NCBI GenBank assembly: GCA_041641295.1
Contig: JBEPYO010000001.1
Location: 672,001 to 736,000, forward strand
Reading direction: 5' to 3'
From: Nitrososphaerota archaeon
GTDB lineage: Archaea > Thermoproteota > Nitrososphaeria_A > Caldarchaeales > Calditenuaceae
DNA: 64,000 bases
Shown here: positions 1,230 to 48,056 of the stretch, piece after piece
Layout: the number at the start of each line of letters is the position of its first letter
Numbering within the stretch: position 1 is the first letter of the stretch
Made by a program: the position numbers and the translations under genes
Notes under the pieces: model-generated
What the model saw: only the letters and a program-made list of their open reading frames with translations
What the model was told of the DNA's origin: nothing
Database searches by the model: none

Positions 1230-3722
1230 GTGCGCCTGTTCATCAAGGTTTTGGAGGACTATCCCGAACTCTTCGGCGTAAAGGAGGTTAATGGTCGGAG
1301 GGTCTCTGTGGAGGAGTTGATTGAGAAGATCGCTCTCGAGCTTGGGCCCGAGATTGACAGGGTTCTTGAGGAGAGGAGAAGGTGGCTTGAGGATGATCGG
1401 CCCCTCTCGGCGAAGGGTGCATTCCCCGACTGGGGAGAAGTGTTCATGGATGCGGATGGGAACAGGAGAACCTTCCGAGAGATAGTCCAAGGAATGATCG
1501 ACAACTTTCTCGGACGAGACACGTCGCTTAGGTGGAGGCTCAACGAGAACGTCCCGATACCTGACGATGCGCATCCGCTCAAGAATCCTGGCCTGGAGAT
1601 CACTGGGCCTTGGCATCCGCTTAGCAGGGCGATAAACCAGATCAATTCTGACGTCGCGGTGGCTTTCGAGGATGAGGAGGACGCTTCTCCCGCCATGTAT
1701 ATTCCCTACGGCTCCAAGGATAAGTGTGCTGCTGTCTGGGAGGCTAGGAGGAATGTTAAGAGGGTTCTAGCGGGTGAGCTGCCCTCCGAGTATGTTGAGC
1801 GTGGGAAAATATACAGGGTGGAGAAGCCGCGGCATAGGTGGCCGACAGTCTTCCACAGGCTGCCGGGAATACATCTGCTGGACTTTGACGTCCTCTTGGA
1901 CGGGAAGCCTATACCATCCATTATTACCTCGGCGGTCATCTACACTCTGAACAACTACGAGTCTCTGAAGAGAGCGGGCTCCGGTGTCTACTTCTACATC
2001 CCCAAGATTCAGACGCCAAGTGAGGCACTGGTTGTAGAGAAGCTCCTGAGGATGATAGAGGGCGCAATAGGTGTCCAGTATGGCACCATCAAGATCGCCA
2101 TGCTCTATGAGGAGGGGCAGGCAGGCCGGTATCTTCCAGCAATACTCTGGGTCTGGAGGGAGAGGCTCATCAAGTCGAGTAATGGTAGGTGGGACTACCT
2201 CGGCAGCCTGATAGAGATGTGGAAGGAGGAGAGGGTCTTCCCTGATCCGCAGAACATTACGATGAGCTCGCCGAACATGATAGTATACCAGAGGTATAAT
2301 GCGCTCATGATGCTAATGGCTGGTCTGAGGAACGGCGAGGCAGATTCGGCTCCTGTGGGCGGTATGGCGGCAGTCATGCTCTACCCAGCCACAGACCCCT
2401 ACCGCCGCAACAAATACAACCTCAAAGCCCTCAGGGACATAAAGCTCGACAAACTCCGCGAGCGCCTACTCGGCCTGATATTTGTCCCAGAGGAGCCGTT
2501 GCTTGAGGGCCGCAAAGTCACCCTCGAGGACGTCCTCTCAGGCAGGGTCAGGGGAAAGCTCTACGACGTGTTCAGGCAGAGCTGGGTTGCAACTAAGGAG
2601 GAGTCCTACGTCGCCGCGGGAAATGAGCCGCTGCGAGCAGACGTGTCTATGCTCCAGCGGATAATAGACGCCGAGGTCAGGCTTGAGAATGTTGAGGGGA
2701 TGGTGCTACCCACGGTGGACAGCGGGCTGACAGAGGGTGAGAGGAAGAGGTTTCAGATGCTTGGACTGCTGGACTCTGATGGAAGGATTATGCCATGGGT
2801 CATTCCTAGGGAGGAGGTGGAGACGCCTGAGAAGCTCTTCTCAAGCCGTATCTGGGGAGATAAGGACCTGTGGCACGGCCTATACGACCCACCAAGCGGA
2901 GACATAACAGTCGAGCATATCCAGCACGCATTCTACATGGCAGCCAACTACGGCTTCCAAGTCCTAAACGGAAACCTCGCAGCAGCCATCGACGACTACG
3001 AGCTCAGGCAGAGATTCATGAACGACCTCGCAACCTACAGAATCTTCGTCTCTTGGCTCTGGACTCTGATACGCCACCGCGCAAAGATCACCAAGCCAGG
3101 GAGTCTTAAGGCCCCTAGCCTCACGGAGATTGGCGTCATACCCGCGATTGATAAGGTTAGGGTCGAGGATGGGACTGTCTTTTCTGAAGAGCTCTTCAAC
3201 ACTCTCTGGGAGCTTCACAACGAGTGGGTTAAGGCCTTCTACGAGGAGCAAGACAGGTTGGCCGCCACTAGGATTGTGTCTGGGGTTCTTGGGGCGGGAG
3301 CAGTGCGTAGCGAGCTTGTGGAGCTGATACTCCCGGTTATTAGGCGGGCCTATGGGGTAGGCCCCTTCAGAGACCTATCACTGGAAGAGGCTGCGAAGGC
3401 GGTAGCCGCGATGCTCAACGTCGATTCCCGCACTGCTCAGAGAGAAGTTGAGCTTAACGCACCCCGCTTCGACAGGTCTAAGGCGCCCATCATAATGGAG
3501 GTTCTCAGGAGGCAGCTAACCTCGCCCCGCTATATACAGCACAGCGCCAGACTCCTCTTCACCATGGCCAGCATGAGTGATGAAGAGGGAAAGCACCTCC
3601 TCGAGGCGGTCTTCGCTCCATCGAGAAGCGAAGTCGTTGATAAGGTTAGGCGCGGCCTGCTCGATAAGAGATACCTCGAGTTACACGACTACATCTACGA
3701 CTACAGGCCGATTGGAGTCTAA
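1230..3722 (+). CDS. Malate synthase, long (~830 aa) archaeal type
   Basis: LEITGP, FEDEEDA, YFYIPKIQ, GRWDY, PVGGMAA and FMNDLAT motifs. The ORF track starts at 1173; GTG at 1230 lies ~25 nt after TTTAAA (~1199-1204) and is the likelier start. Confidence 0.85.
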   Translation: MRLFIKVLEDYPELFGVKEVNGRRVSVEELIEKIALELGPEIDRVLEERRRWLEDDRPLSAKGAFPDWGEVFMDADGNRRTFREIVQGMIDNFLGRDTSLRWRLNENVPIPDDAHPLKNPGLEITGPWHPLSRAINQINSDVAVAFEDEEDASPAMYIPYGSKDKCAAVWEARRNVKRVLAGELPSEYVERGKIYRVEKPRHRWPTVFHRLPGIHLLDFDVLLDGKPIPSIITSAVIYTLNNYESLKRAGSGVYFYIPKIQTPSEALVVEKLLRMIEGAIGVQYGTIKIAMLYEEGQAGRYLPAILWVWRERLIKSSNGRWDYLGSLIEMWKEERVFPDPQNITMSSPNMIVYQRYNALMMLMAGLRNGEADSAPVGGMAAVMLYPATDPYRRNKYNLKALRDIKLDKLRERLLGLIFVPEEPLLEGRKVTLEDVLSGRVRGKLYDVFRQSWVATKEESYVAAGNEPLRADVSMLQRIIDAEVRLENVEGMVLPTVDSGLTEGERKRFQMLGLLDSDGRIMPWVIPREEVETPEKLFSSRIWGDKDLWHGLYDPPSGDITVEHIQHAFYMAANYGFQVLNGNLAAAIDDYELRQRFMNDLATYRIFVSWLWTLIRHRAKITKPGSLKAPSLTEIGVIPAIDKVRVEDGTVFSEELFNTLWELHNEWVKAFYEEQDRLAATRIVSGVLGAGAVRSELVELILPVIRRAYGVGPFRDLSLEEAAKAVAAMLNVDSRTAQREVELNAPRFDRSKAPIIMEVLRRQLTSPRYIQHSARLLFTMASMSDEEGKHLLEAVFAPSRSEVVDKVRRGLLDKRYLELHDYIYDYRPIGV

Positions 3723-9694: not shown

Positions 9695-9837
9695 GCGATC
9701 TAAGCCGTGAGACATAGTTCTAGGCATGACCTTCCTCTGGACCCTGTATGACACGCCTTACAGGCTCACACCCCGACAACACTCCCATCCCTGCTAAGCG
9801 TCTCCACGCTCTTTTACATCCCTGAACCACTGATACT

Positions 9838-9909
9838 TGGGGCCGGTGGGAATCGAACCCACGACCTCCGCCGCGTCAGGGCGGCGTCATACCGCTAGAC
9901 CACGGCCCC
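9838..9909 (-). tRNA. tRNA-Val(GAC), intronless, CCA not encoded
   Basis: Reverse complement GGGGCCG TGGTCTAGCGGTATGAC G CCGCC CT-GAC-GC GGCGG AGGTC GTGGG TTCGATT CCCAC CGGCCCC A folds into a full cloverleaf. Confidence 0.96.
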
Positions 9910-9976
9910 AACTGCATCAGACCGATTCAGCACTCTTTATTTTTAGTCTTTTGCTTTTCTGCGGGGGGTAAACTTG

Positions 9977-42709: not shown

Positions 42710-43507
42710 CTAGACGGCCTCGGCCTCCAGCTTCTTGAGCTCTTCTAGAGCTATCTCTGCCGCCCTCTTTCCTGATAATAGCATCGCCCCGAAGGTCGGC
42801 CCCATCCTCGGCAGACCATAGGTCTCCACCACGGCCATCCCCGCAACTATCAGCCCCGGGTAGACGACACCGGTATACTCGACCACTGCGTCCTCAGACC
42901 TCTCCACCCACATCGCCCCCATACCCCGAATCTTAACAAGACCCCGCGCCTCGAGCTTCTTCACGGCAGCGGCGTCATGCCCAGAGGCGTCAATCACAAG
43001 GCTAGCCTCCAAGGCTATCGGATCGACACAGGTAATCTGTCTTGGAAGGCCCTCGACTGGTGTCCAGTTAACCACGACGCCCCTAACTGCATTATCTCTC
43101 ACCACCACGTCGTCGAGCTTTGTAAGGTTGAGGAATTTGACGCCGGCGTCGCAGGCGGAGGCTATGAGTTTGGAGCATGCATGGGGTCCATGAGCGACGT
43201 ACAGTCCCTCGACATATTTCTTATATGGGACTCCGAGCTCGTCTAGTATCTCTTGAGCTGGGGCCCTGAAGGTTACAGGATTCATCAGGTATCCGCCGAT
43301 CCAGAACCCCCCGCCGAGGTAGTTGTTCTGCTCAATCACTAGGACACGCACCCCATTCTTCGCCAGTTCCCTAGCCGCCATCAGACCCGCAGGACCGGCA
43401 CCCACCACTATCACGTCACTCCGCGCATACTCGCTGAACATTTCTATGAATGATGAGGCTATGGCCCTTGTAATGTCCGACTCTTTAACAGGGCTGAAGA
43501 TTGGCAC
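42710..43507 (-). CDS. thi4: Thiazole synthase Thi4 (Cys-type)
   Basis: GAGPAG, GGG.W.GG, CVDP, GHD and PRMGP.FG.M..SG motifs. Confidence 0.96.
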
Positions 43508-43927: not shown

Positions 43928-44683
43928 ATGTTTACTATGAGGCTTCCCAACGCAGATTACGCTGCAGACCTCTTTAAGGCGGTAGCCGCAGTAGTTGACG
44001 AGGCCTCATTCAAGGTTACTCAGGACTCGTTAAGGCTCGTGTCTATGGATCCCGCGCATGTGAGTCTTGTAGACTTTGAGCTGAGGAAGGAGGCCGCAGA
44101 GGAGTTCGTGGCAGACAAGGAGACGGAGCTGACAGTCAACCTTCAGGAGCTGCTCAAATTCCTCAAAAGGGCGAAGAAGGGCGAGTCACTGACACTCGTC
44201 TACGAGGAGGAGAAGAGGAAGCTGAACATAATACTGACAGACCCGACCAAGTCGCGGGAGAGGAGGTACCAGCTCAACACCCTCGAGCCCGTAGCCGGTA
44301 CTAGCGCCTCTCCCAAGCTAGTCTTCGAGGCTAGGGCGAGGGTAAACTCTGAGGCACTGTGGGAGGCCGTCGAGGACGCAAGCCTAGTCTCAGACTCTGT
44401 CAAGATAATCATCCAGCCCTCCGCTGTGATATTGATGGCTAAAGGCGACATGGGAGTGGTTGAGAACAAGCTCTCAAGGGATGGCGCGCTAGTGTATGAG
44501 GTGGAGGCCCCCCACGAGGTTGTAGCAAGCTTCAGCCTCGCCTACCTAGAGCGGATAGTCAAGCCGGGGCGGGACTTATCCGAGGAGACGCTCATACAGC
44601 TTAGCAGCAACAAGCCGATAAAGCTGACCTTCACTCTTCCCGCAGGCAGGCTTGAATACCTCATAGCGCCTAGGCTGGAGTGA
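43928..44683 (+). CDS. pcn: DNA polymerase sliding clamp PCNA
   Basis: MDPAHVSLV, FSL.YL and Y.IAPR motifs. Confidence 0.95.
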   Translation: MFTMRLPNADYAADLFKAVAAVVDEASFKVTQDSLRLVSMDPAHVSLVDFELRKEAAEEFVADKETELTVNLQELLKFLKRAKKGESLTLVYEEEKRKLNIILTDPTKSRERRYQLNTLEPVAGTSASPKLVFEARARVNSEALWEAVEDASLVSDSVKIIIQPSAVILMAKGDMGVVENKLSRDGALVYEVEAPHEVVASFSLAYLERIVKPGRDLSEETLIQLSSNKPIKLTFTLPAGRLEYLIAPRLE

Positions 44684-44799: not shown

Positions 44800-45498
44800 G
44801 TGAGCAGAGACCAGCCGGGTGAGCGGGAGGTAGCCAAGCAGGCTGATAGGCCTTCTGAGAGTGATTTTGCGAGGGACATTAACGCGCTAGTGGAGAGGCT
44901 AGCAGAGGTACTGGGCCAGTCTCTCAGGGACCAGCTCTCCAAGATTGGGGCTAAGCTCATAGACATGCATCAGAGAGGGCTTGTTAAGATCAACCATTCC
45001 GTAATGGAGGTTATCTGTGCGGGCCACTTGGCGAGGCTGGGATACGAGGTGGACGTGGAGAGGTATCTCGGCGATGCGCTCGTCTGCGACGTCTTTGGCG
45101 AGAGGGGAGGTAGCACCCAGATCATCGAGATAGAAACTGGCTTCGCCCCGCCCGAGGCCGCCCTCGACCCCCAGAGGTATCTACGGGCACGCGTGGTTAG
45201 CAAGGTTGCGCGATATAGCAAATATGCAGACAAGTTCAGCCTAGCAACACCCCGCTACAACGTGCTAGAGATCCCGGAGCCCCTATTAAAGCCGCCGAGG
45301 CTTAGAGAGGCTGGAGAAGTAGAGTCGCTGAAGAGGCTCTGCGACATCTACTACAGCAGACCACCCATCCAGATAGACGAGCTGCGCAACTGCAGAATAC
45401 ACTCCATAATAGTCATCAACATCGACGATCTCGAGATGATAGAATATTCGCCGGAACAGTATTACGAGAAAGTCCTCAGACACGTGTTGGCTCCGTAA
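44800..45498 (+). CDS. Hypothetical protein, PD-(D/E)XK-like
   Basis: HS..E....GYEVDVE.....CDV.......IIEIETGF, followed by K.ARYS. Confidence 0.75.
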   Translation: MSRDQPGEREVAKQADRPSESDFARDINALVERLAEVLGQSLRDQLSKIGAKLIDMHQRGLVKINHSVMEVICAGHLARLGYEVDVERYLGDALVCDVFGERGGSTQIIEIETGFAPPEAALDPQRYLRARVVSKVARYSKYADKFSLATPRYNVLEIPEPLLKPPRLREAGEVESLKRLCDIYYSRPPIQIDELRNCRIHSIIVINIDDLEMIEYSPEQYYEKVLRHVLAP

Positions 45499-45504
45499 AA
45501 TAGG

Positions 45505-45687
45505 TGGGGCGCCTTTCGGGGAGGGCGCGCGACGTGCGTGTTAGACCCCTAGGCCCCACGCACACCGTGAGCACCATCCCCAATCTCTTTGCCCACGGTT
45601 TCCCGATGGGTCCACGAGACTGGAGATTCCTCGAGACGCCAGGCTATCCTGACGCCTCTTGGATCTCCCCTGTCCCGGGCGCCCCGC
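45505..45687 (-). ncRNA. Unassigned ~183-nt highly structured ncRNA (closing helix + three hairpins)
   Basis: Four helices of 8-12 bp, G-U pairs that work only on the minus strand, a GAAA tetraloop, TTTATATA ~23 nt upstream and TATTTT immediately downstream. Confidence 0.8.
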
Positions 45688-45709
45688 TGCATAGGAAACT
45701 AGGGTCTCC

Positions 45710-45717
45710 TATATAAA
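45710..45717 (-). promoter_or_regulatory. TATA box of the putative ncRNA
   Basis: TTTATATA preceded by GCAAAC (BRE-like); canonical spacing to G45687. Confidence 0.7.
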
Positions 45718-45758
45718 CGTTTGCATCAACTTATTTAGAATAATACGCAATTATTACT

Positions 45759-48056
45759 TCAAGCCGGCTTTACGGGTTTTTCTCGTATTATTCGCCAAAT
45801 CTGGTAGGGTGTTAGCGGCGTATCCACTACCCTGACGCCGAGTGGCGCCAGCGCATCCTCGACAGCGTTTACCACCGCCTGCGTCAAGCCAATTGTCGCG
45901 GCCTCCCCGACACCTTTAGCCCCTAACGGGTTAGGAGCAGGTGTCTCGGTCCTCTCCGTCAGGATTTCAGGTATCTCCACAGCGGTGGGGATGAGGTAGT
46001 CTCCGAAGTTGGAGTTGACGAGGTTTCCGTCGCTGTCGTAGAAGGCCTCCTCGTAGAGGGCCTGGGCTAGTGCTTGGACTGCTCCACCAATCACCTGCCC
46101 CTCCACCAGAAGCGGGTTAACAACCCTTCCACAGTCATCGACAAGCACTAGCCTCTTCACCTCCACCCTACCCGTCTCCGTATCTATCTCGACCACCGCC
46201 ACATGCGTCCCAAACGGATACGTCAGCTGCGGACTGTAGCCCGCCTCCGCTGACAGCCCGGGTTCCATACCCGCAGGCAGTGCCGAAGGGTCATACGCTA
46301 GGGCGGCGACCTCCTTGATCGTCACGGACTTCTCTGGGACACCCTTCACGCGAGCCTTCCCATCAACAAGCTCTAAGTCCTCCGGCCTGGCCTCCAGCAT
46401 ATGAGCCGCAAGCCTCAGTATCTTTTCTCTCACCTTCATAGAGGCTTGTAGGACCGCGTTACCGCCAGAAGCCAGCGTCCAGCTACCGGCCGTCCCAGGT
46501 CCCCATCCGATCAGAGAAGTATCACCAAATATTACGTCGACATCCTTTATGTCCACGCCCAGTGCGTCAGCGGCTATCTGTGCGAAGGCGGTCTCCTCAC
46601 CCTGACCATGTGGCAGCGTTCCAGAAATCACTTTAACCCTGCCATCCTTCTCCACACTCACTATAGCAGGAGTGGGAGCAAAGTTACATACCTCGATGTA
46701 GCTTGAGATTCCTATTCCCAACAGCTTGCCCACCGCCCTCAGCTCGGACTGTTTTCGCCTAAGCTCCTCATAGCCCACAATCTCGAGCGCCTTGTTAAGA
46801 GCCTGCTCATAGTTCCCAGAGTCATACTTGTGACCGGTTATAGTCTCGTAGGGGAACTCATCCGGCCTGATGAAATTCCTTCTCCTAACCTCCGCAGGAT
46901 CGATTCCCAGCTCCCTCGCAATCCTATCCATAGTCCGCTCAATTATGTATGAGGCCTCTGGCCTACCCGCGCCCCTATACGCCGCGGTTGGAACTTTATT
47001 GGTGAAGACACCGGTGACCTCGGCCTCCAAGCCCTTCAGCTTATAGCAACCCGGCAGCATTCCGACAATCCCCTCAGGAACCTGTATCGTAGAGAAGTAT
47101 GGATAAGCGCCGAGATCCGTCAAGATTCTAGCCCTAACCCCGAGAAGCCGGCCATCACTCTTCACAGCCGCCTCGACCCAAGCAGCAGTACCCCGCCCAT
47201 GAGTTGTAGTGTGGAAGTTCTCACTACGCGTCTCAATCCACTTTATAGGCCGCCCAAGAAGTTTGGCCAAGAGAGGGATCACAACATCTTCAGGATAGTG
47301 CTCAAGTTTCGAGCCAAAGGCCCCGCCTATGTCTGGTGCTATAACCTGAATCTTAGACTCAGGTATTCCAAGGGCCTCTGCAGTCCAGCTGCGAAAGTCG
47401 TGTGGGAACTGCTTAGTGGCCCAGATCCTCAGGTAACCGACCCCCTCGTCAAAAACCGCCACCACTCCGCGACACTCCATCGCAGCGGGGACAAGCCTCT
47501 GTATTCTCAGCTGGACATCGACGACCCTGTCGGCCTCCCTGAAGGCCGCCTCGGCATCACCATAGACACGCTTCCTTGTGAAGCAGACATTGTCTGGGAA
47601 GTCATCATGTATGACAGGCGCGCCAGGCCTAGAAGCTTCAAGTGGGTCTACAACCGGCTCAAGCCTCTCGTAATCCACGCTGATGTATTCTAGAGCGTCC
47701 CGCGCCGTGTAGGGGTCGTTAGCCACTACAACTGCAACAGGCTCGCCAACATACCTAACCTTTCCCTCCGCGAGAGGTTTAACCACAAAACCCCTCCGCC
47801 CCCGCGGTACATCCACATGTATACCACCACACATCTTGTTAAGCTCCTCGCCTGTGAAGGCGGCCACCGCGCCATTTTGAAGTGCACCAGACACATCGAT
47901 ACTAGTTATTCTCGCGTGGGCGAATGGGCTCCTAAGAAAGGCCGCATAAAGCATTCGCGGGATACTTATATCATCTATGTATCTTCCCCTCCCGGTTAAA
48001 AACCTCAGATCCTCCTTTCGCGGGATGGGCTTACCAACGTAGGTCGCTGACTGCAC
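45759..48056 (-). CDS. Xanthine dehydrogenase family Mo-binding large subunit (CoxL form II / aldehyde oxidoreductase-like)
   Basis: R.ED.RFLTG.G.Y, GGAFGSK, AYRGAGRPEA, HGQG.ET and GAKGVGE motifs. Confidence 0.92.
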   Translation of the reverse strand: MQSATYVGKPIPRKEDLRFLTGRGRYIDDISIPRMLYAAFLRSPFAHARITSIDVSGALQNGAVAAFTGEELNKMCGGIHVDVPRGRRGFVVKPLAEGKVRYVGEPVAVVVANDPYTARDALEYISVDYERLEPVVDPLEASRPGAPVIHDDFPDNVCFTRKRVYGDAEAAFREADRVVDVQLRIQRLVPAAMECRGVVAVFDEGVGYLRIWATKQFPHDFRSWTAEALGIPESKIQVIAPDIGGAFGSKLEHYPEDVVIPLLAKLLGRPIKWIETRSENFHTTTHGRGTAAWVEAAVKSDGRLLGVRARILTDLGAYPYFSTIQVPEGIVGMLPGCYKLKGLEAEVTGVFTNKVPTAAYRGAGRPEASYIIERTMDRIARELGIDPAEVRRRNFIRPDEFPYETITGHKYDSGNYEQALNKALEIVGYEELRRKQSELRAVGKLLGIGISSYIEVCNFAPTPAIVSVEKDGRVKVISGTLPHGQGEETAFAQIAADALGVDIKDVDVIFGDTSLIGWGPGTAGSWTLASGGNAVLQASMKVREKILRLAAHMLEARPEDLELVDGKARVKGVPEKSVTIKEVAALAYDPSALPAGMEPGLSAEAGYSPQLTYPFGTHVAVVEIDTETGRVEVKRLVLVDDCGRVVNPLLVEGQVIGGAVQALAQALYEEAFYDSDGNLVNSNFGDYLIPTAVEIPEILTERTETPAPNPLGAKGVGEAATIGLTQAVVNAVEDALAPLGVRVVDTPLTPYQIWRIIREKPVKPA

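What the first reader, a model, noticed from the sequence alone, without database searches (positions are those of the whole stretch)
45505..45687. Candidate novel independently transcribed ~183-nt four-way-junction RNA
Seen on the minus strand. Closing helix: GGGGCGCC (45685-45678)/GGCGCCCC (45513-45506), continuing past an AAA bulge as CGGG/CCCG and AGGG/CCCT. Hairpin A: GAGGCGTCAGG-ATAG-CCTGGCGTCTC (11 bp). Hairpin B: ATCTCCAGTCTC/GAGATTGGGGAT (12 bp) extended by CCCA(T)CGG-GAAA-CCGTGGG. Hairpin C: GTGCGTG-GGGCC-TAGG-GGTCT-AA-CACGCAC. All six non-Watson-Crick positions in these stems are G-U on the minus strand (A-C on plus), and the GNRA loop is also minus-specific, which indicates selection at the RNA level. 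TTTATATA sits ~23 nt upstream and TATTTT follows the 3' end, which reads ...CCCC-A-CC like an acceptor stem. No downstream gene lies on this strand, so it is not a riboswitch leader. It lacks the T-loop of tRNA, the helix-8 motif of SRP RNA and the CR-V (ACAGAA) of RNase P RNA, although GAGGAATCTCC after hairpin A echoes RNase P CR-I. This is the best candidate in the window for an undescribed system.
Basis: seen in the sequence. Interest (0 to 1): 0.85.

Follow-up and report, generated by a model that had tools for sequence, protein, structure and literature searches.

The report
New archaeal RNA beside nuclease-like gene
This is a real, previously undescribed folded RNA gene of hot-spring archaea that keeps company with an uncharacterised nuclease-like protein gene, which suggests an unknown RNA-protein machine.

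Summary
It folds far better than shuffles (z -7.3). It is single-copy, has an archaeal TATA box about 25 nt upstream and a T-run downstream, and matches no Rfam 15 family. Canonical RNase P and SRP RNAs lie elsewhere in the genome.

I found 52 homologous loci in 51 genomes: 7 genera of Caldarchaeales plus three families outside that order. In 41 aligned RNAs 94% of predicted pair cells are paired, against 37-44% when partners are slid. 51 of 56 pairs show compensatory change.

New here: the RNA almost always abuts one gene, "c0" (window 44800-45498). c0 is a ~220-aa protein with no Pfam family and a predicted PD-(D/E)XK nuclease fold, found in 178 of 401 sampled Thermoproteota genomes. The two genes are convergent in Caldarchaeales and tandem elsewhere. 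One pair appears to have moved together into another family, and one is duplicated together.

Best reading: a new ncRNA family that works with c0 as an RNA-protein pair. The partnership and the function are inferred, not shown.

The parts
45710..45717 (-). TATA box (TTTATATA) of the RNA gene, about 25 nt upstream of P1
   Evidence: Sequence. The same element is aligned in 7 same-genus sequences. An AT-rich 8-mer lies at -42 to -24 in 28 of 41 RNA loci by a crude count. The g12 loci carry a weaker CGAAAGCCTTATYC element that this count misses, and one locus is masked. That an archaeal TATA box sits near -26 is recalled knowledge.
45506..45685 (-). The structured RNA, from the 5' strand of P1 to the 3' strand of P1 (180 nt). 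The true 5' and 3' ends are not mapped.
   Evidence: MFE -114.7 kcal/mol, z -7.26. R1 scores it 210 bits. R2, a model built only from other genera, scores it 37.3 bits, E 2e-7.
45678..45685 (-). P1, 5' strand (GGGGCGCC)
   Evidence: Pairs with 45506-45513. Across 41 RNAs, 7 of the 8 P1 pairs show two or more Watson-Crick types.
45671..45677 (-). J5, the conserved 7-nt purine-rich 5' loop (CGGGACA; family consensus [C/A]GGRANA)
   Evidence: In 41 RNAs the second G and both A positions are invariant (41 of 41); the first G is G in 40 of 41.
45665..45670 (-). P2, 5' strand (GGGGAG)
   Evidence: Pairs with 45518-45523. The third pair reads AU 27, GC 7, GU 3, UA 3 and 1 unpaired in 41 RNAs.
45633..45658 (-). 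Hairpin A (11 bp, AUAG loop). In most genera the apex reads YNGGGG-GNNG-CCYNR.
   Evidence: compensatory changes in 7 of its 11 pairs among 8 sequences; apex sequences.
45576..45627 (-). Hairpin B, with an internal loop and an apical GAAA-capped stem (45592-45610)
   Evidence: In 22 RNAs of other genera all 13 pairs of the outer stem show compensatory change.
45526..45571 (-). Hairpin C (core 45534-45563, GGGCC-UAGG-GGUCU with an AA bulge)
   Evidence: The core is invariant within the genus. This is the most variable domain between genera.
45514..45523 (-). P2, 3' strand (CUCCCC, 45518-45523) and J3 (GAAA, 45514-45517; family consensus GAAN)
   Evidence: G and the first A of J3 are invariant in 41 of 41.
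45506..45513 (-). P1, 3' strand (GGCGCCCC)
45497..45502 (-). T-run (TATTTT), the likely terminator of the RNA gene. It overlaps the stop codon of c0 on the other strand.
   Evidence: Sequence. A run of 4 or more T lies within 25 nt downstream in 33 of 41 RNA loci. That archaeal transcription terminates at T-runs is recalled knowledge.
44800..45498 (+). c0: a 232-aa protein gene convergent with the RNA; its stop codon lies 7 nt from P1. It is an uncharacterised family with a predicted PD-(D/E)XK nuclease fold. The start codon is uncertain, since homology begins near residue 20.
   Evidence: No Pfam, NCBIfam or PADLOC hit. 2514 homologues at E<=1e-3. AF2 pLDDT 90.5. Best fold matches are PD-(D/E)XK proteins at Z 9.0, 8.9 and 8.6. 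It abuts the RNA in 47 of the 52 RNA loci found.

Best explanation
The locus is a gene for a previously undescribed structured non-coding RNA, about 180 nt here and 175-225 nt in relatives. It is transcribed from its own archaeal promoter and ends at a T-run.

The RNA folds as a closing stem P1, then a conserved asymmetric purine-rich internal loop (5' [C/A]GGRANA, 3' GAAN), then a short stem P2 that opens into a four-way junction with three hairpins. Two of the hairpins usually end in GNRA-like or GNNG tetraloops.

It belongs to a family found in Caldarchaeales (Aigarchaeota) and in at least three other families of Thermoproteota.

The most likely mode of action is inferred, not shown. I propose that the RNA works in trans as the partner of the adjacent, equally uncharacterised c0 protein, a predicted PD-(D/E)XK-fold nuclease, forming an RNA-protein complex. 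In that complex the RNA would scaffold, target or control the nuclease. The conserved P1/J5/J3/P2 element and the hairpin A apex are the likeliest protein or tertiary contact sites.

Shown: the structure, its conservation, the strand, the copy number, the promoter and terminator motifs, the gene linkage, and the fold prediction for c0.
Inferred: transcription, binding between the RNA and c0, and any catalytic or targeting role.
For: RNA reality
- z -7.26 on the minus strand.
- Among 8 close relatives, 20 of 62 pairs show compensatory change.
- In 22 RNAs of three other genera, 36 of 56 pairs do. 95.1% of cells are paired against 38-44% when partners are slid, and 0 of 500 shuffles reach the observed covariation score.
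- In 41 RNAs aligned to model R2, 94.2% of cells are paired against 37-44% slid, and 51 of 56 pairs are compensatory against 22-31 slid. This alignment is fitted to the model, so it leans towards the structure.
- 1-2-nt indels between close relatives argue against coding.
- TATA-like elements and T-runs recur.

Not a known RNA
- No Rfam family matches this RNA or its variants.
- RNase P RNA and SRP RNA are elsewhere in the genome.

Linkage to c0
- The two genes are convergent and 0-80 nt apart in 39 Caldarchaeales genomes from g1, g4, g6, g9, g12, g14 and G054, although the other flanking genes differ.
- They are convergent in G131 of f17.
- They are tandem, with the RNA downstream of c0, in 4 of 4 f56 and 3 of 3 f73 genomes examined.
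- G069 carries a second RNA copy beside a second c0 that is interrupted by stops.
- In G054 (family f4) the RNA + c0 segment is absent from the other 17 f4 genomes, while the flanking RNase P RNA/Hsp20 segment is shared with 16 of them.
- G054's c0 is nested in family f1 as sister to g1 (support 99/96). Its RNA scores 135 bits with the g1 model, against 17-36 bits for g2. The two genes therefore share one history.
- Across 54 c0 loci of 27 families no other protein neighbour recurs. c0 clusters in 53 of the 54, and the next largest cluster has 7 members from two families.
- Within the order, genomes that lack c0 also gave no RNA hit: 17 of 18 f4, 3 of 3 g15, G007, G037 and G070.

c0 as a nucleic-acid enzyme
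- AF2 pLDDT is 90.5.
- The top structural matches are PD-(D/E)XK proteins.
- E70, D97, E110, E112, K135, R138 and Y139 are invariant in 30 homologues.
Against: - No transcript data exist: no RNA run holds the stretch.
- No test of binding was possible with these tools.
- Adjacency is not universal. In genus g2 the RNA and c0 sit on different contigs in the 3 genomes with a clear RNA hit; a fourth gave only a partial 16.8-bit match.
- In g5 (3 genomes), and at c0 loci of most other families examined, no RNA was found within about 1.2 kb. These include f5, f10, f15, f19, f33, f21 and f16.
- c0 is much more widespread (178 of 401 genomes) than the RNA as detected so far.
- The convergent arrangement means the two genes are not co-transcribed.
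- The co-absence evidence is weak, because the whole-genome model searches missed known positives.
- Related genomes are not independent observations.
- The fold matches of c0 are modest (Foldseek best E 2.7e-3; Z 9.0). The canonical lysine of the (D/E)xK motif is not in its usual place.
Confidence: 0.55

Rival explanations
1. This is a stand-alone trans-acting housekeeping or regulatory ncRNA whose function has nothing to do with c0. On this reading the adjacency is old synteny that has simply not yet been broken in most lineages.
For: - In genus g2 the RNA and c0 are unlinked, yet both are kept.
- c0 occurs in many lineages where no RNA was found beside it.
- The two genes are convergent, so they are not co-transcribed.
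Against: - Linkage persists across at least three orders while every other neighbour changes.
- Linkage survives a change of relative orientation, from convergent to tandem.
- The pair appears to have been transferred together and duplicated together.
Confidence: 0.24
2. This is a nuclease-plus-inhibitor RNA module resembling a type III toxin-antitoxin or defence pair. c0 would be a harmful nuclease held in check by the structured RNA.
For: - c0 has a nuclease fold, and one of the top Foldseek rows is a CdiA-CT toxin domain.
- c0 has a patchy distribution, 178 of 401 genomes, with whole families lacking it.
- There is one apparent horizontal transfer of the pair and one decaying second copy.
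Against: - The RNA has no tandem repeats. From recall, type III antitoxin RNAs are short tandem repeats upstream of the toxin on the same strand.
- The pair is single-copy.
- c0 is about 45-50% identical across classes. In the tree most genera form well-supported clades, though g6 and g5 fall outside the main Caldarchaeales clade.
- c0 has no PADLOC hit.
- No mobile-element genes were seen nearby.
Confidence: 0.1
3. This is a cis or antisense regulatory element of c0. Transcription of the RNA gene, or read-through from it, would control the 3' end of c0 or its expression.
For: - The RNA's T-run overlaps the c0 stop codon.
- In G054 the two genes overlap by 5 nt.
- The convergent layout is conserved in Caldarchaeales.
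Against: - An antisense device needs no conserved four-way junction with 51 of 56 covarying pairs.
- The RNA is tandem to c0, not convergent, in f56 and f73.
- The RNA is unlinked from c0 in g2.
Confidence: 0.06
4. This is a very divergent member of a known RNA class, such as a minimal RNase P RNA, an SRP-like RNA, a tRNA-like RNA, or a transposon guide RNA.
For: - The size and the closing stem recall the minimal (type T) RNase P RNA, which I know from memory.
Against: - No Rfam model matches at E<=0.1.
- RNaseP-T scores at most 13.2 bits anywhere in the genome, and not at this locus.
- A canonical RNase P RNA (156 bits) and SRP RNA (132 bits) are present.
- GAGGAA is not conserved and lies inside a covarying helix.
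- ARAGORN finds no tRNA here.
- The RNA is single-copy with no transposase beside it.
Confidence: 0.03

Closest known systems
Orphan structured ncRNAs known only from comparative genomics (for example GC-rich ncRNAs of hyperthermophiles such as HgcC, or OLE/ROOL-type RNAs; named from memory)
   Same: It is an independently transcribed RNA with an intricate, covarying fold and no known function. It was recognised from sequence and covariation, and it is GC-rich relative to its flanks (0.645 against about 0.49).
   Different: It matches none of the 4227 Rfam 15 models. It has its own architecture: P1, the J5/J3 internal loop, P2 and a four-way junction. It also has a specific conserved protein-gene neighbour.
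Archaeal RNase P RNA (Rfam RF00373) and the minimal type T form (RF02357)
   Same: It is a housekeeping-style archaeal RNA of about 200-300 nt, with a closing stem and a multi-helix junction, that could act with protein partners.
   Different: Neither model matches. No conserved CR-I or CR-V is present. A canonical RNase P RNA is present elsewhere in the same genome. In G054 it lies right beside the c0-RNA pair as a separate gene.
RNA-plus-nuclease gene pairs of mobile elements (omega RNA with TnpB/IscB; bridge RNA with IS110; recalled)
   Same: A structured RNA of 150-250 nt is encoded next to a nuclease or recombinase gene, and the two stay together when they move.
   Different: c0 has a predicted PD-(D/E)XK fold rather than a RuvC, HNH or DEDD fold. 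The pair is single-copy. No element ends or repeats were seen. The RNA has its own promoter and is usually convergent with the gene. The c0 tree keeps most genera together and shows little sign of frequent transfer.
Type III toxin-antitoxin systems (ToxIN-like; recalled)
   Same: A protein nuclease gene is paired with an RNA gene.
   Different: The RNA has no tandem repeats, is not upstream of c0 on the same strand, and has a complex fold. c0 has no PADLOC hit.

Membership tests
Archaeal RNase P RNA (RF00373) | Covariance-model match at or above the gathering score (84 bits) | tested here: not met
   The 601-nt region gives no match even at E<=10. The genome's only match above the cut-off is at C1:549082-549380, 156 bits.
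Archaeal RNase P RNA (RF00373) | Conserved CR-I and CR-V sequences forming P4 (definition recalled) | tested here: not met
   GAGGAA varies among the 8 relatives (GAGGAA, GAGGAG, TGGGAG, AAGAAG and others) and is absent in genus g6. The segment is the covarying 5' strand of hairpin B.
Minimal type T RNase P RNA (RF02357) | Covariance-model match (gathering score 60 bits) | tested here: not met
   The best score in the whole genome is 13.2 bits, E 1.2, at another place. Nothing matches at the locus.
Archaeal SRP RNA (RF01857) | Covariance-model match (gathering score 96.5 bits) | tested here: not met
   The only match is at C1:1255109-1255423, 132 bits. Nothing matches at the locus.
tRNA or tRNA-like RNA | Cloverleaf with T-loop; conserved discriminator and acceptor end | tested here: not met
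   ARAGORN and Rfam find only tRNA-Val at 9837-9910. The 3 nt after P1 differ in most of the 8 relatives.
Dispersed repeat (MITE) | Many copies per genome | tested here: not met
   The own genome has one full-length copy. The other 4 matches are at most 18 nt, E >= 0.5.
Transposon guide RNAs (omega RNA, bridge RNA) | Adjacent TnpB, IscB or IS110-type gene; Rfam HEARO-type match | tested here: not met
   The neighbours are c0 (no Pfam family) and a molybdopterin oxidoreductase. No Rfam match.
Type III toxin-antitoxin RNA | Tandem short repeats upstream of the toxin gene on the same strand (definition recalled) | tested here: not met
   No tandem repeat in 45300-45900. The RNA is convergent with c0.
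PD-(D/E)XK nuclease superfamily (for the neighbour c0) | Restriction-endonuclease-like alpha/beta core fold | tested here: met
   AF2 model pLDDT 90.5. VIA-align Z is 9.0 (3dnx), 8.9 (XisH, 2okf) and 8.6 (AF1548, 1y88), followed by NucS, Can2 and restriction enzymes. The Foldseek top rows are the same kind of protein, but the best E is only 2.7e-3. The tool notes that Z of 7-8 is common for models without a clear Foldseek match, so this is a fold assignment of moderate strength.
PD-(D/E)XK nuclease superfamily (for the neighbour c0) | Catalytic D ... (D/E)xK motif | tested here: inconclusive
   D97, E110 and E112 are invariant on the predicted second and third core strands, but the motif reads ExE. 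The nearest invariant lysine is K135, on the following helix.
PD-(D/E)XK nuclease superfamily (for the neighbour c0) | Sequence-profile match to a curated family | tested here: not met
   No Pfam or NCBIfam hit for c0 and no PADLOC hit. A profile of 30 homologues matches no PDB sequence at E<=10.

The most novel reading that the evidence does not exclude
The RNA and c0 form a previously unknown archaeal ribonucleoprotein nuclease. The four-way-junction RNA would be an obligate subunit (guide, scaffold or catalytic partner) of a PD-(D/E)XK-fold enzyme with a core cellular role such as RNA processing or DNA repair. The complex would be ancestral to a large part of Thermoproteota, with the RNA escaping detection in AT-rich lineages.
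Probability: 0.3. Interest if true: 0.92.

Novelty: categorically new. Interest (0 to 1): 0.78.

Why it matters
Archaea have very few known structured RNAs outside translation, RNase P, SRP and guide sRNAs. This RNA is well supported by covariation and carries a four-way junction. It has an independent promoter, occurs in several orders, and matches no curated family.

Its persistent linkage to a widely conserved but uncharacterised nuclease-fold protein gives a concrete, testable pairing. The experiment is to express c0, add the RNA, and look for binding and activity.

If the pair is a complex, it would add a new RNA-protein enzyme or control module to archaeal biology. It would also assign a first functional context to a protein family found in 178 of 401 sampled Thermoproteota genomes, among them families with small, near-complete single-contig genomes.

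Tried and rejected
Known RNA classes. RNase P (type A and type T), SRP RNA and tRNA were tested and rejected. Rfam was also run on variants from other genera and families, with no match to the RNA.

Repeats and coding. The MITE or repeat reading is rejected: one copy and no tandem repeat. Mechanical ORFs overlap the RNA (45504-45716 plus strand, 45549-45692 minus strand). Coding is rejected because of 1-2-nt indels between close relatives and the pattern of compensatory pair changes.

A chance hit. A short model and BLAST hit in G015 (L056) lies inside an Fe-S protein gene.

K-turn reading of J5/J3. I considered this by eye only. The required tandem G.A next to the closing stem is not there. 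No tool was used for this.

A mis-designed pattern scan. My gap between the hairpin A apex and J3 was too short. Only 1 known positive matched. 23 of 401 genomes matched, and the control (the pattern read backwards) matched at a similar rate. The result is noise and is not used.

Whole-genome searches with RNA models.
- (76 genomes) missed all g1 genomes, including the window's own.
- (151 genomes of G377's class) found nothing and missed G377 itself.
- Searches missed the positive controls G000 and G377.
Absences from these calls are therefore not evidence of absence. I used c0-anchored loci with filter-free model searches instead.

A wrong strand, corrected. I first folded the wrong strand of the G377 RNA. 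One search shows the RNA is on the c0 strand.

Expression. No RNA holder is listed for window 45300-45900. Read laying was not used, because only DNA contigs were on offer.

Literature.
- Searches for Aigarchaeota + non-coding RNA, Thaumarchaeota/structured RNA/covariation, archaea/novel RNA motif/Thermoproteota and Caldarchaeales + RNA listed nothing that describes this RNA or c0. I saw only listings and the starts of abstracts.
- For PMC12979851 I also saw two passages. Neither concerns ncRNA.
- Supplements were not open. I cannot exclude that the RNA or c0 appears in a supplementary table or in a subscription journal.

Other blanks. The bacterial promoter/terminator scan does not apply to archaea. 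The Atlas look-up of c0 gave only 'hypothetical protein' clusters.
Full report
THE OBSERVATION

- The strand folds to -114.7 kcal/mol, z = -7.26, with 0 of 200 dinucleotide shuffles as good.
- The plus strand is weaker: -95.9 kcal/mol, z = -5.20.
- TTTATATA lies at 45717-45710, about 25 nt before P1. TATTTT lies at 45502-45497.
- The region is more GC-rich than its flanks (0.645 against about 0.49).
- The own genome holds one full-length copy. The other 4 BLAST matches are at most 18 nt. There is no tandem repeat.

WHAT IT IS NOT

- Rfam 15 at gathering thresholds finds only a tRNA-Val elsewhere in the window.
- At E<=10 on the 601-nt region, the three matches are chance-level. The best is 22 bits against a cut-off of 47.4.
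- The window's genome is G000, 1.56 Mb and 93.8% complete. It has a canonical archaeal RNase P RNA (156 bits) and SRP RNA (132 bits) at other places.
- The minimal type T RNase P model scores at most 13.2 bits anywhere in the genome.
- Record titles of near-identical public contigs place the organism in Caldarchaeales/Calditenuaceae, formerly Aigarchaeota (L040-L046).

RELATIVES AND COVARIATION

Close relatives.
- BLAST finds the RNA in 6 of the 7 other genomes of the genus (75-95% identity) and in G054, which is binned in another family.
- In these 8 sequences RNAalifold predicts 62 pairs, of which 20 show compensatory change. Single-nucleotide indels rule out coding.
- A model from them (R1) also gave a weak hit in genus g6 (37 bits). 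That led to 7 of 7 g6 genomes by BLAST, with 75 predicted pairs and 9 compensatory.

Gene maps.
- Maps of 9 genomes show that the one constant neighbour is a ~220-230-aa gene, which I call c0 (window 44800-45498, plus strand). It is convergent with the RNA, while the gene on the other side differs between genera.
- Using c0 as an anchor, I found the same RNA architecture downstream of c0 in genera g4, g9, g12 and g14.
- That makes 39 Caldarchaeales genomes with the convergent pair: g1 7, G054 1, g4 2, g6 7, g12 12, g9 7, g14 3.

Covariation in other genera.
- For 22 RNAs of g12, g14 and g9, 36 of 56 pairs show compensatory change.
- 95.1% of cells are paired, against 38-44% when the 3' partners are slid by 1-3 columns.
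- 0 of 500 column shuffles reach the observed covariation score.

A second model.
- A model from these 22 RNAs (R2) recognises g6 (59-67 bits), g1 including the window (33-39 bits) and G012 of g4 (29.5 bits). G010 of g4 scores only 14.6 bits.
- After I removed 5 wrong-strand rows from the model-fitted alignment A7, 41 RNAs remained. They give 94.2% paired cells against 37-44% slid, and 51 of 56 pairs compensatory against 22-31 slid. This alignment leans towards the model's structure.

ARCHITECTURE

- The layout is P1 (8-13 bp); J5, consensus [C/A]GGRANA, with one G and both A positions invariant; P2, beginning GG; three hairpins; the 3' strand of P2, ending CC; J3, consensus GAAN, with G and the first A invariant in 41 of 41; and the 3' strand of P1.
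- The hairpin A apex reads YNGGGG-GNNG-CCYNR in most genera. In the window's genus it is shorter.
- Hairpin B carries an apical GNRA-type or UUCG-type capped stem above an internal loop.
- Hairpin C is the most variable domain.
- An AT-rich 8-mer lies at -42 to -24 in 28 of 41 loci by a crude count. That count misses the weaker CGAAAGCCTTATYC element of g12, and one locus is masked.
- A run of 4 or more T follows within 25 nt in 33 of 41 loci.

- Its fourth pair reads AU 29, GC 7, GU 2, UA 1 and unpaired 2 of 41.
- The matching P2 pair reads AU 27, GC 7, GU 3, UA 3 and unpaired 1.
- P2 is the better kept of the two. In genus g2 it is kept in all 3 RNAs, against 1 of 3 for the alternative.
- A switch or a base triple cannot be excluded.

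BEYOND THE ORDER

- c0 occurs in 178 of 401 sampled Thermoproteota genomes.
- I ran filter-free R2 searches of c0 loci in four batches. They found the RNA in:
  - f56: G377 at 52 bits, then G487, G491 and G537, which is 4 of 4.
  - f73: G511, G526 and G535 at 25-41 bits, which is 3 of 3.
  - f17: G131 at 23.6 bits.
- In f56 and f73 the RNA lies 100-220 nt downstream of c0 on the same strand. G377 has its own GTTTATATC element upstream of the RNA.
- In G131 the two genes are convergent.
- No RNA was detected within about 1.2 kb of c0 in the examined loci of f5 (5), f10 (5), f15 (2), f19 (3), f33 (2), f20 (4), f21 (2), f16 (2) and single or paired loci of a dozen further families.
- Other GC-rich structured stretches lie convergent to c0 in G371 (a 151-nt rod) and G329. 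I did not follow them up.

INSIDE THE ORDER: EXCEPTIONS AND CO-OCCURRENCE

- In genus g2 the region downstream of c0 is coding. The RNA exists on other contigs: G016 36.5 bits, G011 24.4 bits, G013 22.5 bits with R2, and 36.3, 25.2, 17.5 bits with R1. It carries the J5, J3 and apex hallmarks.
- There it sits beside the same molybdopterin oxidoreductase gene that flanks it in the window.
- In g5 (3 AT-rich genomes) nothing was found near c0.
- Of the 76 genomes of the order, 48 have c0.
- Genomes without c0 gave no RNA hit, with one exception, G071, which is 76% complete. The c0-free genomes are 17 of 18 f4, 3 of 3 g15, G007, G009, G014, G017, G028, G037 and G070.
- This co-absence is weak evidence, because whole-genome model searches missed known positives.

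SIGNS THAT THE TWO GENES TRAVEL TOGETHER

1. G069 has a second RNA copy (116 bits) about 220 nt from a second c0 that is broken by two stop codons.
2. G054 is binned in family f4.
   - The right part of its 2.8-kb contig holds RNase P RNA (157 bits) and Hsp20. All or part of that segment matches 16 of the 17 other f4 genomes at 72-85% identity.
   - The left part, with the RNA and c0, matches none of them.
   - Its c0 is sister to the g1 proteins, nested inside family f1 (ultrafast bootstrap 99, SH-aLRT 96).
   - Its RNA scores 135 bits with the g1 model, against 17-36 bits for g2 and 10-17 bits for g4.
   - Transfer of the pair, or a chimeric contig or binning error, would both explain this. 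Either way the RNA and c0 share one history.
3. In 54 c0 loci from 27 families, no protein-coding neighbour recurs across families. The c0 cluster has 53 members, and the next largest has 7 from f56 and f73 only.

THE NEIGHBOUR c0

- It has no Pfam, NCBIfam or PADLOC family.
- 2514 homologues at E<=1e-3 were found among 3431 candidates. Every source name shown among the 120 listed reads 'hypothetical protein'. Organism labels in those names include Nitrososphaerota, Nitrososphaerales, Aigarchaeota, Thermoproteota and Brockarchaeota; the Atlas adds Bathyarchaeota.
- A profile of 30 homologues matches no PDB sequence.
- The AlphaFold2 model is confident: pLDDT 90.5, pTM 0.85. It has an N-terminal helical hairpin followed by an alpha/beta core.
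- Foldseek's top rows are all PD-(D/E)XK-type proteins: CdiA-CT, SPO1766, XisH, EcoO109I, SfsA, Can2 and NucS. The scores are weak, with a best E of 2.7e-3.
- The Foldseek-independent search gives Z 9.0 (3dnx), 8.9 (XisH) and 8.6 (AF1548), followed by YaeQ, restriction enzymes, NucS and Can2.
- Invariant residues include K63, N65, H66, E70, D85, E87, D97, E110, E112, K135, R138 and Y139. This fits a metal-dependent nuclease site with an unusual ExE instead of ExK. That reading of the motif is mine.

HOW IT MOST LIKELY WORKS

Shown: a conserved, strand-specific, single-copy, promoter-bearing structured RNA, and its persistent genetic linkage to a predicted nuclease-fold protein.

Inferred: the RNA acts in trans and binds c0. 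The invariant J5/J3 internal loop next to P1 and the hairpin A apex are candidate contact or docking sites. The complex acts on nucleic acid.

I put 0.55 on the whole statement, that this is a new ncRNA family that partners with c0. I put about 0.95 on the RNA being a real structured RNA gene that is not in Rfam.

The rivals are a stand-alone RNA with inherited synteny (0.24), a nuclease-inhibitor pair (0.10), a cis or antisense element (0.06), and a divergent known class (0.03).

NOVELTY

- No Rfam 15 family matches.
- Four literature searches listed nothing relevant. I saw listings and abstract starts only. For PMC12979851 I also saw two passages.
- Supplements and subscription journals were not searchable.
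- I rate this RNA family, with its protein linkage, as categorically new, with that caveat.

LIMITS

- There are no expression data.
- There is no protein-RNA modelling tool.
- Whole-genome RNA searches were insensitive.
- Related genomes are not independent.
- Family and genus labels (f1, g1 and so on) are the tool's anonymous codes.

Noticed in passing
window 45665-45677 with 45514-45523 (A7 columns 9-18 and 348-351): J5 (CGGR) and the start of P2 (GGR) are both complementary to the same 3' strand (YCCG), and both covary with it. The two helices are mutually exclusive. This could be a conformational switch or a base triple.
   Followed up: partly
L017 (G054 contig) 1369-1659, minus strand: The RNase P RNA gene (157 bits) lies directly upstream of c0 on the same strand. 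In this genome the new RNA, c0, RNase P RNA and Hsp20 are packed into 2.1 kb. Other genomes of that family have different genes beside RNase P RNA.
   Followed up: partly
L141 1-186 and L142 1-188 (G062, G060; genus g14): The 5' end of the 16S rRNA gene lies about 300 nt from the RNA gene and is divergent from it. Seen only in this genus.
   Followed up: no
L126 (G371, family f55), about 150 nt convergent with c0: A different GC-rich 151-nt rod-like hairpin (MFE -117 kcal/mol) with a TATA-like element upstream and a T-run downstream lies where the four-way RNA lies in other lineages. A weak C/D-box sRNA-like hit (sR1, 24.7 bits, below the cut-off) is nearby at 819-873.
   Followed up: no
G069:C26:63615-63816 and 64040-64372: A second copy of the RNA (116 bits) lies next to a second c0 that is interrupted by one TGA and one TAG. 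It is either a decaying duplicate of the pair or contamination from another strain.
   Followed up: no
window 43928-44683 (+), 42710-43507 (-), 45759-48056 (-): The neighbouring genes are PCNA (directly upstream of c0 on the same strand in 3 of the 4 mapped genomes of the genus), Thi4 thiazole synthase, and a 765-aa molybdopterin aldehyde oxidase/xanthine dehydrogenase large subunit. In genus g2 the RNA stays beside the oxidoreductase gene while c0 is elsewhere.
   Followed up: partly
window 9837-9910 (-): tRNA-Val (GAC), 70 bits. It is the only Rfam match in the window.
   Followed up: no
c0 tree: The c0 proteins of genera g6 and g5 do not group with the other Caldarchaeales c0 proteins. They fall among other families with weak support. 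The g6 RNA also has a distinct hairpin C domain.
   Followed up: no
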